From the human T2T-CHM13v2.0 reference genome, Homo sapiens, in the NCBI RefSeq assembly GCF_009914755.1, contig NC_060931.1: a DNA stretch of 64,000 nt; one strand, 5' to 3'. Below are positions 15,901-17,919 of the stretch, piece after piece. Numbering within the stretch: the first letter of the stretch is position 1; the number at the start of each line of letters is the position of its first letter. The notes under the pieces are model-generated. The model was not told where the DNA came from and made no database searches. It saw only the letters and a program-made list of their open reading frames with translations. Position numbers and translations under genes: made by a program.

Positions 15901-16754
15901 AGGACTTCATGTCCAAAACACCAAAAGCAATGGCAACAAAAGACAAAATTGACAAATGGGATCTAATTAAACTAAAGAGCTTCTGCACAGCAAAAGAAAC
16001 TACCATCAGAGTGAACAGGCAACCTACAACATGGGAGAAAATTTTCGCAACCTACTCATCTGACAAAGGGCTAATATCCAGAATCTACAATGAACTCAAA
16101 CAAATTTACAAGAAAAAAACAAACAACCCCATCAAAAAGTGGGCGAAGGACATGAACAGACACTTCTCAAAAGAAGACATTTATGCAGCCAAAAAACACA
16201 TGAAGAAATGCTCATCATCACTGGCCATCAGAGAAATGCAAATCAAAACCACTATGAGATATCATCTCACACCAGTTAGAATGGCAATCATTAAAAAGTC
16301 AGGAAACAGCAGGTGCTGGAGAGGATGCGGAGAAATAGGAACACTTTTACACTGTTGGTGGGACTGTAAACTAGTTCAACCATTGTGGAAGTCAGTGTGG
16401 CGATTCCTCAGGGATCTAGAACTAGAAATACCATTTGACCCAGCCATCCCATTACTGGGTATATACCCAAATGAGTATAAATCATGCTGCTATAAAGACA
16501 CATGCACACGTATGTTTATTGCGGCACTATTCACAATAGCAAAGACTTGGAACCAACCCAAATGTCCAACAATGATAGACTGGATTAAGAAAATGTGGCA
16601 CATATACACCATGGAATACTATGCAGCCATAAAAAATGATGAGTTCATATCCTTTGTAGGGACATGGATGAAATTGGAAACCATCATTCTCAGTAAACTA
16701 TCGCAAGAACAAAAAACCAAACACTGCATATTCTCACTCATAGGTGGGAATTGA
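12927..16754 (+). CDS. L1 ORF2p (1275 aa endonuclease/reverse transcriptase)
   Basis: Open 1275-aa frame. APE endonuclease motifs (QETH, GDFN, SDH), RT FADD and C-terminal CWRGC...HCWWDC all present. Confidence 0.98.
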
Positions 16755-17170
16755 ACAATGAGATCACATGGACACAGGAAGGGGAATATCACACTCTGGG
16801 GACTGTGGTGGGGTCGGGGGAGGGGGGAGGGATAGCATTGGGAGATATACCTAATGCTAGATGACACATTAGTGGGTGCAGCGCACCAGCATGGCACATG
16901 TATACATATGTAACTAACCTGCACAATGTGCACATGTACCCTAAAACTTAGAGTATAATAAAAAAAAAAAGAATCTAAAAAAAAAAAAAAAAAAAAAGAA
17001 TTGAAGGCAGTCCTTGAAGAGACATTTGTATGCCCATGTGCACAGCAGCATTATTCACAACAGCCAAAGCATAGAAGCAAGCCAGTGTCTGTTCTTGGAT
17101 GAATGAGTAAACAAAATGTGGCATAGCCATGCAATGGAGTATTACTCAGCCTTAAAAAAGAAGGAAATCC

Positions 17171-17478
17171 TGGCGGGGCACGGTGGCTCACGCCTATAAT
17201 CCTGACACTTTGGGAGACCGAGGTGGGTGGATCATTTGAGGTCAGGAGTTTGAGACCAGCCTGGCCAACATGGTGAAACCCCGCCTCTACTAAAAATACA
17301 AAAATTAGCTGGGATTGGTGGCGGGTGCCTATAATCCCAGCTACTCGTGTGGCTGAGGCGAGAGAATCGCTTGAACCCAGAAGGCAGAGGTTGCAGTGAG
17401 CCGAGATCATGCCACTGCACTCCAGCCTGGGCAACAGAGCGAGACTCTGTCAAAAAAAAAAAAAAAAAAAAAAAAAAG
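17171..17478 (+). mobile_element. Alu (S-type)
   Basis: Dimeric Alu with long poly(A); TSD AAGGAAATCCTG. Confidence 0.93.
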
Positions 17479-17835
17479 GAAATCCTGTCCCATGCTTCCA
17501 TGTGGACGAATCTTGAGGACATGATGCTAGTGAAATCAGCCATCCCCAAAAGGCAAATACTGTATGATTCCACTTACATGAGGTAGAGTAGTCAAAACCA
17601 TAGAGAGAGTAAGTAGCAGGGTGGCTGCAAGAGGCAGGGGGGAGGGGGACCGGGGAGTTATTGCTTAATGGGCACGGTTTCAGTTTCGCAGCATGGTGAA
17701 AGCTCTCCACTATCTCTCCCCGACAGCGAGCCCCAGTGGTCCTTCTGGTGTACTGATGTATGAAAAGAACAGCAAGGCCCGCCCCCCCCCACACACAGCA
17801 GGTTGTACCACATACATCCGTCCCCTTCTACTCAC

Positions 17836-17919
17836 CCAACCTCAGAGATTGATTTGCTGTTCTTCACAGCCAGGGCGAGATACTTCCCTCCTTCACTTGT
17901 TATTTTGTTTTTTCCCAGT
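17836..17919 (-). CDS. NOD1: NOD1 exon 9 (LRR, 84 nt)
   Basis: Encodes ...LGKNKITSEGGKYLALAVKNSKSISEV...; CAG acceptor, donor GTGAGT. Confidence 0.95.

What the first reader, a model, noticed from the sequence alone, without database searches (positions are those of the whole stretch)
16515..17836. 'Gene-breaking' partner: L1 antisense poly(A) signal predicts a NOD1(1-818) truncated isoform
Seen: TTTATT at 16515-16520 is AATAAA on the NOD1 strand. It is the first such hexamer I found downstream of exon 9 (~1.3 kb). Reading through the exon 9 donor gives GTT GGG TGA, an immediate stop. Established: antisense-oriented intronic L1s can split a gene into a 5' transcript ending at an L1 antisense poly(A) site and a 3' transcript from the antisense promoter. 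Inference: the 5' transcript would encode CARD+NACHT+proximal LRRs, lack the distal LRRs, and have no downstream exon junction to trigger NMD. It complements the ORF0-LRR product almost exactly.
Basis: partly seen in the sequence, partly recalled or inferred. Interest (0 to 1): 0.72.

Follow-up and report, generated by a model that had tools for sequence, protein, structure and literature searches.

The report
Latent L1 poly(A) signal in NOD1
The AATAAA in NOD1 intron 9 is real, but it is the standard antisense poly(A) signal carried by every young L1 element, and nothing available here shows that NOD1 transcripts actually end there.

Summary
Observation confirmed. AATAAA lies on the NOD1 (-) strand at 16520-16515. 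It is 1316 nt past the exon 9 donor and is the first canonical hexamer there. Reading through the donor gives GGG (the native Gly818), then TGA.

The hexamer is not specific to NOD1. It is the reverse complement of two ORF2 codons (Phe-Ile) of a full-length L1HS with open ORFs, inserted antisense in intron 9. The 161 nt around it are 100% identical at 40 of 40 scored loci in this genome. A second copy lies in an older L1 in intron 10. It is 1 of 25 AATAAA and 46 AATAAA/ATTAAA hexamers on the NOD1 strand in this window.

Its context (CA, then a GU-rich element) matches the real NOD1 site on crude measures. It is therefore a credible latent site.

I found no transcript evidence. No listed RefSeq exon ends there, and NOD1 is absent from three supplement sets.

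Short 3'-end reads cannot be placed at this site, so only long reads can decide.

Verdict: an untested candidate for a known mechanism, of low to moderate interest.

The parts
16515..16520 (-). AATAAA hexamer on the NOD1 strand. It is the reverse complement of ORF2 codons Phe-Ile.
   Evidence: ORF2 frame
16485..16514 (-). Predicted cleavage zone and downstream element. CA lies at 16504-16503, 16489-16488 and 16486-16485. UGUGUCUUU lies at 16502-16494.
   Evidence: 3 CA within 10-30 nt; T 0.42, G+T 0.62 in the +9..+48 window
17832..17837 (-). Codon 818 GGG (its last base is the first intron base) followed by TGA on read-through of the donor
17836..17919 (-). NOD1 exon 9 (one 28-residue LRR exon), donor G|GTGAGT
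   Evidence: hub annotation
10941..16997 (+). Full-length L1HS, antisense to NOD1. ORF1 is 11847-12863 (338 aa) and ORF2 is 12927-16754 (1275 aa), both open. The flanking direct repeat AAAAGAATTG lies at 10931-10940 and 16994-17003.
   Evidence: listed as the hg19 chr7:30478859-30484914 L1HS in NOD1 in Paterson 2015 Table 1
16975..16997 (-). A run of 21 T followed by AG, which resembles a cryptic acceptor on the NOD1 strand. It is created by the copy-specific GAATCT between two poly(A) tails.
17137..17491 (-). Alu antisense to NOD1, between exon 9 and the L1. A T-run plus AG acceptor-like site would start an exon at 17446.
   Evidence: hub repeat mask. The Alu identity is recalled from the sequence pattern, not tested.
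8628..8633 (-). Second copy of the same L1 antisense AATAAA with its downstream element, in an older L1 fragment in intron 10

Best explanation
The hexamer exists because L1 ORF2 encodes Phe-Ile (TTT ATT) at this spot, and on the opposite strand that reads AATAAA. Every young L1 inserted antisense in a gene therefore places this latent poly(A) signal, with its GU-rich downstream element, on the host pre-mRNA. In NOD1 intron 9 it lies 1.3 kb past a strong donor. I infer that it is usually passed over, through splicing and U1-dependent suppression of intronic sites. At most a small fraction of transcripts would end near 16503-16485. Such an RNA would encode native residues 1-818. That product keeps the CARD, the NACHT-WH-HD2 module and the proximal LRRs, and lacks the last 135 residues. 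Shown here: the sequence, the reading frame, the family-wide identity and the L1 anatomy. Inferred: how often the site is used, and the behaviour of any protein.
For: Origin and spread of the hexamer:
- The hexamer is ORF2 codons in frame (..[11 protein letters not shown]..).
- The 161 nt around it are 100% identical at 40 of 40 scored loci, out of 650 first-look candidates. All 30 of 30 fetched loci carry the exact 34-mer.
- A copy 270/301 identical in intron 10 keeps the hexamer and downstream element.
- It is 1 of 25 AATAAA and 1 of 46 AATAAA/ATTAAA on the NOD1 strand in the window.

Reasons to expect little use:
- The donor is GTGAGT, and a second GTAAGT lies at 17577.
- No exon in the hub's RefSeq list ends inside 10941-16997.
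- NOD1 gives 0 occurrences in the supplements of two genome-wide L1 antisense-promoter surveys. It also gives 0 in the differential intronic-poly(A) tables of Singh 2018.
- Lee 2008 passages say TE-associated sites tend to be used slightly less than others.
- Kaer 2011 passage: antisense L1 disturbed host transcription much less than sense L1.
- A preprint abstract states that U1 silences proximal intronic signals (listing).
Against: By crude measures the context equals that of NOD1's real terminal site. The L1 site scores T 0.42, G+T 0.62 and 1 upstream UGUA. The genuine site scores T 0.33, G+T 0.62 and 0 UGUA.

The site is transcribed about 7.1 kb before the intron 9 acceptor, which leaves time for cleavage.

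Lee 2008 report that L1 is the TE family most often tied to poly(A) sites, with 857 listed. Minus-strand sites outnumber plus-strand sites 2:1, and 7 sites are predicted on the ORF2 minus strand.

Absence from annotation is weak evidence. The 529 nt from the site to the L1 end have 39 other scored copies at 98-99% identity, out of 1425 candidates, so short 3'-end reads cannot be assigned here. The Singh spreadsheet lists only differentially used events. Five RefSeq exons were not shown to me.
Confidence: 0.7

Rival explanations
1. The L1 truly breaks NOD1. A substantial, stable exon 1-9 transcript ends at the L1 antisense site and makes NOD1(1-818). It is paired with a transcript from the L1 antisense promoter that carries exons 10-14.
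For: The hexamer, CA and GU-rich element are present and comparable to the real NOD1 site. The stop is immediate and no exon junction follows it. The L1 5' UTR is intact, with a 71-aa antisense ORF open at 11391-11176. An AG|GT donor at 11200 is in phase 2, which is in frame with exon 10. The mechanism is in print (passages).
Against: No listed RefSeq exon ends in the L1. NOD1 is absent from the supplements of two antisense-promoter surveys. Three searches pairing NOD1 with intronic polyadenylation, L1HS or antisense promoter found no such report. The same signal is found all over the genome and also in intron 10. The exon 9 donor is strong.
Confidence: 0.1
2. The L1 signal is used, but after splicing. 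Exon 9 joins a cryptic acceptor upstream of the hexamer, for example the 21-T tract plus AG at 16975-16997 or the antisense Alu acceptor at 17446. This makes a separate terminal exon and a protein of 817 residues plus a short foreign tail, not 1-818.
For: The best acceptor-like AG in the interval is 16974, with 20 of 20 pyrimidines upstream. Others lie at 17624, 17446 and 16946. In the exon 9 frame the predicted tails run from 11 to 131 codons, counting codon 818. A mouse L1 antisense acceptor at the poly(A) signal, with the tract derived from the tail, is described in Zemojtel 2007 (passage). A passage in Hancks and Kazazian 2016 names antisense L1 splice acceptors as part of gene-breaking.
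Against: The scoring was a plain pyrimidine count, not a trained splice-site model. No branch point was tested. No listed RefSeq exon starts at these positions.
Confidence: 0.08
3. A truncated NOD1 reading frame ending at about residue 817 does arise from intron 9, but through the RefSeq-listed alternative exon 10086-9361 downstream of the L1, not through the L1 signal.
For: The hub lists 9361-10086 among the exons of other transcripts. Its upstream edge has an acceptor-like ttttatag|A, and no GT follows 9361. Joined to exon 9 it would read four codons and then TGA (my reading).
Against: I could not see which exons this one is joined to. No poly(A) hexamer lies just upstream of 9361. If further exons follow, the stop would expose the RNA to nonsense-mediated decay.
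Confidence: 0.1

Closest known systems
L1 'gene-breaking' (Wheelan, Aizawa, Han and Boeke 2005; Han, Szak and Boeke 2004)
   Same: A full-length L1 lies antisense in an intron. It has an antisense poly(A) signal downstream of the upstream exons and an intact 5' UTR facing the downstream exons.
   Different: Neither of the two RNAs that define a broken gene has been seen for NOD1. I could not read either paper. That this hexamer is their major antisense site is my guess. The guess rests on it being the only AATAAA on the antisense strand of this L1, against 15 on the sense strand.
Intronic polyadenylation isoforms of immune genes (Singh et al. 2018)
   Same: Use of an intronic signal would give a C-terminally truncated protein from an innate-immunity gene.
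   Different: NOD1 occurs 0 times in the 4 held supplementary files. The spreadsheet holds only differentially used events.
NOD1 splice variants lacking exon 10, exons 10-11 or exons 10-12 (Girardin et al. 2005, as summarised in a 2023 review)
   Same: These variants also lose LRRs starting at exon 10. The review says only full-length NOD1 triggers NF-kB on stimulation (passages).
   Different: They are in-frame exon skips that keep the C-terminal end, not 3'-truncated RNAs. I did not see the original paper.
[quoted passage not shown]
   Same: Minus-strand L1 sequence supplies host-gene poly(A) sites. Prediction gave 7 sites on the ORF2 minus strand (passages).
   Different: That survey describes mostly old L1 subfamilies and sites backed by ESTs. 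This site has no such backing.

Membership tests
L1 gene-breaking | L1 with 5' UTR and 3' part inside an intron, antisense to the host gene | tested here: met
   The L1 lies at 10941-16997 on + and NOD1 is on -. ORF1 and ORF2 match the L1 Pfam families.
L1 gene-breaking | Antisense-strand poly(A) signal inside the L1, downstream of the upstream exons | tested here: met
   AATAAA at 16520-16515 with CA and UGUGUCUUU. This was tested at sequence level only.
L1 gene-breaking | Observed 5' transcript: upstream exons ending at the L1 antisense site | not testable with these tools
   No RNA data are available. No listed RefSeq exon ends in the L1, with 5 exons unseen. Short reads are not unique here.
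L1 gene-breaking | Observed 3' transcript from the L1 antisense promoter joined to downstream exons | not testable with these tools
   The 5' UTR and a 71-aa antisense ORF are intact, and the donor at 11200 is in frame with exon 10. NOD1 gives 0 occurrences in the supplements of two antisense-promoter surveys.
Functional mammalian poly(A) site | AAUAAA or AUUAAA hexamer | tested here: met
Functional mammalian poly(A) site | GU- or U-rich element within about 40 nt after the cleavage point, with cleavage 10-30 nt after the hexamer | tested here: met
   CA lies 11-12 nt after the hexamer and is followed by UGUGUCUUU. G+T is 0.62, equal to the genuine NOD1 site. The measures are crude, not a trained model.
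Functional mammalian poly(A) site | Upstream UGUA motifs | tested here: inconclusive
   There is 1 UGUA in the 100 nt upstream. The genuine NOD1 site has 0.
Functional mammalian poly(A) site | Mapped RNA 3' ends with untemplated A tails | not testable with these tools
   No RNA data are available.
Human-specific L1 (L1HS), active copy | Full length, both ORFs open, flanking target-site duplication | tested here: met
   ORF1 is 338 aa and ORF2 is 1275 aa with endonuclease and reverse-transcriptase domains. The 10-nt direct repeat is present.
Human-specific L1 (L1HS), active copy | Recorded activity | not testable with these tools
   In print: Paterson 2015 Table 1 lists this NOD1 element as L1HS. 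It holds rank 18 in the Brouha 2003 list of active L1s, and 84 tumour inserts in 9 tumours align to it. The ACA subfamily marker in the 3' UTR is visible, but that it is diagnostic is recalled.

The most novel reading that the evidence does not exclude
A human-specific, still-active L1HS splits NOD1 into two working parts. One is a ligand-blind CARD-NACHT-proximal-LRR protein (1-818) ending at the L1 antisense signal. The other is a distal-LRR fragment driven by the L1 antisense promoter. Human NOD1 signalling would then be tuned by the state of the L1, whether by its presence, its methylation or U1 activity. This might contribute to the disease associations reported for NOD1 intron 9. That link is recalled and was not checked.
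Probability: 0.05. Interest if true: 0.7.

Novelty: new member of a known kind. Interest (0 to 1): 0.25.

Why it matters
NOD1 senses bacterial peptidoglycan through its LRRs. A stable product lacking the distal LRRs could blunt or mis-set that response. If a human-specific L1 caused it, this would be a recent, possibly variable change to innate immunity. As it stands, the value of the finding is practical. It names one intron where a young L1 places a good-looking poly(A) signal on an immune gene. It also shows why standard short-read 3'-end data cannot settle the matter.

Tried and rejected
- Papers not held: Wheelan 2005, Girardin 2005, Cordaux and Batzer 2009, Hysi 2005 and Brouha 2003. The position of the published 'major antisense polyadenylation site' is therefore unverified.
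- Paper searches for 'antisense polyadenylation' with LINE-1 and for 'major antisense polyadenylation' found 0 papers.
- The search for NOD1 with 'intronic polyadenylation' found 3 papers, 2 of them listed. One is a splicing review, of which I read passages. The other is a PROTAC review, seen in the listing only. Neither reports such an isoform.
- An RNA fold of 141 nt around the site puts the hexamer in a hairpin with the downstream element. The z-score is only -1.62, and 17 of 200 shuffles fold as well, so I drew no conclusion.
- A narrow consensus-donor pattern found no donor inside the L1 antisense ORF. A plain AG|GT scan found three.
- No trained splice-site or poly(A)-site model was available. 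The rankings are simple counts and should be read as such.
- I considered the idea that the hexamer is a chance match with no sequence context. I rejected it because the downstream element is present and conserved in the intron 10 copy.

Full report
**1. The observation**

On the - strand, AATAAA occupies 16520-16515. NOD1 exon 9 is 17836-17919, and its donor reads G|GTGAGT.

A scan of 18 hexamer variants on the - strand found only GGGGCT, 102 nt past the donor, and AATAAT, 781 nt past it. AATAAA follows at 1316 nt.

Joining the annotated coding exons gives 2453 nt through exon 9, which is 817 codons plus GG with no stop. Reading on into the intron gives GGG and then TGA. Exon 10 begins with G, so the native codon 818 is also GGG. 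The read-through product would be exactly native residues 1-818.

The hexamer is not statistically remarkable. The window has 115 AATAAA on both strands, against 45.55 (sd 6.75) in shuffles. The NOD1 strand up to 50484 carries 25 AATAAA and 21 ATTAAA.

**2. What the hexamer is**

It lies inside a 6.06-kb L1 on the + strand, at 10941-16997. The element has:
- a complete 5' UTR;
- an open ORF1 of 338 aa at 11847-12863 and an open ORF2 of 1275 aa at 12927-16754;
- L1 Pfam domains in both ORFs, with endonuclease and reverse transcriptase in ORF2;
- the 10-nt direct repeat AAAAGAATTG on both sides.

The L1 interrupted an older L1 fragment that lies in the same orientation.

In the ORF2 frame, TTT ATT encode Phe-Ile within ..[11 protein letters not shown]... 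The antisense AATAAA is therefore a by-product of ORF2 coding. It is the only AATAAA on the antisense strand of this L1. The sense strand has 15.

The 161 nt around the hexamer are 100% identical at 40 of 40 scored places in this genome, out of 650 first-look candidates. All 30 of 30 fetched loci hold the exact 34-mer.

A second, older L1 fragment in intron 10 lies in the same orientation. It is 270/301 identical over the aligned stretch and keeps the hexamer (8633-8628) and the downstream element, with 2 mismatches in 34 nt.

By eye, the old L1 fragment flanking the young one reads TGTGCA at the matching spot. I did not align it. The signal seems to be a feature of the younger L1 lineages.

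**3. This L1 copy is already catalogued**

Table 1 of Paterson et al. 2015 (PMC4498532, passages) lists 'L1HS plus 4bp and polyA', hg19 chr7:30478859-30484914, + strand, gene NOD1. It records 84 tumour inserts in 9 tumours aligning to this element, and rank 18 in the Brouha 2003 list of active L1s.

The double tail is visible here: 11 A, then GAATCT, then 21 A.

A 2026 paper on lung cancer lines names NOD1 among the genes near L1HS loci shared by at least 80% of lines (passages).

**4. Quality of the poly(A) site**

After the hexamer come CA at 11-12 nt and then UGUGUCUUU. Two more CA lie within 30 nt, and one UGUA lies within 100 nt upstream.

On the same crude counts:

| Site | T fraction | G+T fraction | Upstream UGUA |
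|---|---|---|---|
| L1 antisense site (16520) | 0.42 | 0.62 | 1 |
| Genuine NOD1 terminal site (fetched from the genome) | 0.33 | 0.62 | 0 |

By sequence, the L1 site is therefore not inferior. A local hairpin that includes the hexamer is predicted, but it is not beyond chance: z = -1.62, and 17 of 200 shuffles fold as well.

**5. What argues against regular use**

- The exon 9 donor matches GTRAGT, and a GTAAGT lies at 17577. From established knowledge, which I recall, U1 bound at such sites suppresses nearby intronic poly(A) signals. A preprint abstract in the listing says the same.
- The hub's list of exons from the other RefSeq transcripts has none ending in the L1, though 5 exons are not shown.
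- NOD1, CARD4 and the hg19 coordinates give 0 occurrences in the 11 supplement files of Criscione 2016.
- NOD1 gives 0 occurrences in the 11 files of the 2023 pan-cancer antisense-promoter study.
- NOD1 gives 0 occurrences in the 4 files of Singh 2018. That spreadsheet covers only differentially used intronic events.
- Searches pairing NOD1 with 'intronic polyadenylation', L1HS, or 'antisense promoter' plus LINE-1 found no report of such an isoform.
- Kaer 2011 found antisense L1 far less disruptive than sense L1 (passage).

**6. Why these negatives are weak**

The 529 nt from the site to the L1 3' end have 39 other scored copies at 98-99% identity, out of 1425 candidates. The 161 nt at the site itself are identical elsewhere. 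Only reads that reach unique sequence beyond 17492, or exon 9 itself, can decide.

Lee, Ji and Tian 2008 (passages) report L1 as the TE family most often tied to poly(A) sites. They find minus-strand sites twice as frequent as plus-strand sites, and predict 7 sites on the ORF2 minus strand.

**7. Other outcomes from the same anatomy**

Several acceptor-like AGs lie between exon 9 and the hexamer on the NOD1 strand:
- The strongest would start an exon at 16974, behind 21 T. It is created by this copy's GAATCT.
- Others would start exons at 17624, at 17446 (the antisense Alu) and at 16946.

In the exon 9 frame they would add tails of 11 to 131 codons, counting codon 818. Antisense L1 acceptors at the tail are documented in mouse (passage). 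They are named as part of gene-breaking in a review (passage).

Separately, the RefSeq-listed exon 10086-9361 has an acceptor-like upstream edge and no donor after it. Joined to exon 9, it would stop after four codons. I could not see which exons it is joined to.

**8. The partner claim**

A 71-aa antisense ORF in the L1 5' UTR is open at 11391-11176. One AG|GT donor inside it, at 11200, is in phase 2, the phase exon 10 needs. The sequence therefore permits the partner transcript. That the two products are complementary follows simply from both parts lying in intron 9.

**9. Likely protein behaviour (inference)**

Exon 6 encodes NACHT, WH and HD2. Exons 7-13 are single 84-nt LRR units (hub annotation). 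A 1-818 product therefore keeps the signalling and oligomerisation parts and loses the last 135 residues.

A review summarising Girardin 2005 says variants lacking exon 10, exons 10-11 or exons 10-12 do not respond to stimulation (passages). A 1-818 protein would most likely be ligand-blind. Whether it would be inhibitory or constitutively active is open.

**10. Verdict**

My estimates:
- 0.70 that the site is silent or only marginally used;
- about 0.08 for a spliced form ending at the same site;
- about 0.10 for truncation through the downstream alternative exon instead.

If real, it would be one more case of a known mechanism.

Noticed in passing
window 10941-16997 (+): Full-length L1HS with both ORFs open. 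It has a double poly(A) tail (11 A, GAATCT, 21 A) and a 10-nt target-site duplication. In print it is the NOD1 L1HS, rank 18 of the Brouha 2003 active list, with tumour inserts aligning to it (Paterson 2015 Table 1).
   Followed up: partly
window 8600-8633 (-), intron 10: Second copy of the same L1 antisense AATAAA and GU-rich element, in an older L1 fragment (270/301 identical). It lies 638 nt past the exon 10 donor and likewise has no listed 3' end.
   Followed up: yes
window 9361-10086 (-): A RefSeq exon of another NOD1 transcript inside intron 9, downstream of the L1. It has an acceptor-like ttttatag|A at 10086 and no GT after 9361. Joined to exon 9 it would stop after four codons, giving nearly the same truncated frame by another route. 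Its exon connections are unknown.
   Followed up: partly
window 11176-11391 (-): A 71-aa open frame on the antisense strand of the L1 5' UTR, at the ORF0 position (recalled). The AG|GT donor at 11200 is in phase 2, in frame with exon 10. Another at 11285 is in phase 1.
   Followed up: partly
window 17778-17790 (-): A run of nine G, then C, then GGG, about 45 nt into intron 9, beside a GT repeat. A NOD1 insertion/deletion near the start of intron IX linked to asthma and bowel disease is recalled from the literature. I could not check whether this is that site.
   Followed up: no
window 17137-17491 (-): An Alu antisense to NOD1 between exon 9 and the L1. Its T-run plus AG at 17446-17448 has the form typical of Alu exonisation (recalled).
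   Followed up: no
window 17840-17919 (-): The hub lists an exon 9 variant that is 4 nt shorter, using a GTTGGG donor at 17839. That would shift the frame.
   Followed up: no
window 10941-16997: Strong strand asymmetry of AATAAA inside the L1: 15 on the sense strand against 1 on the antisense strand.
   Followed up: yes
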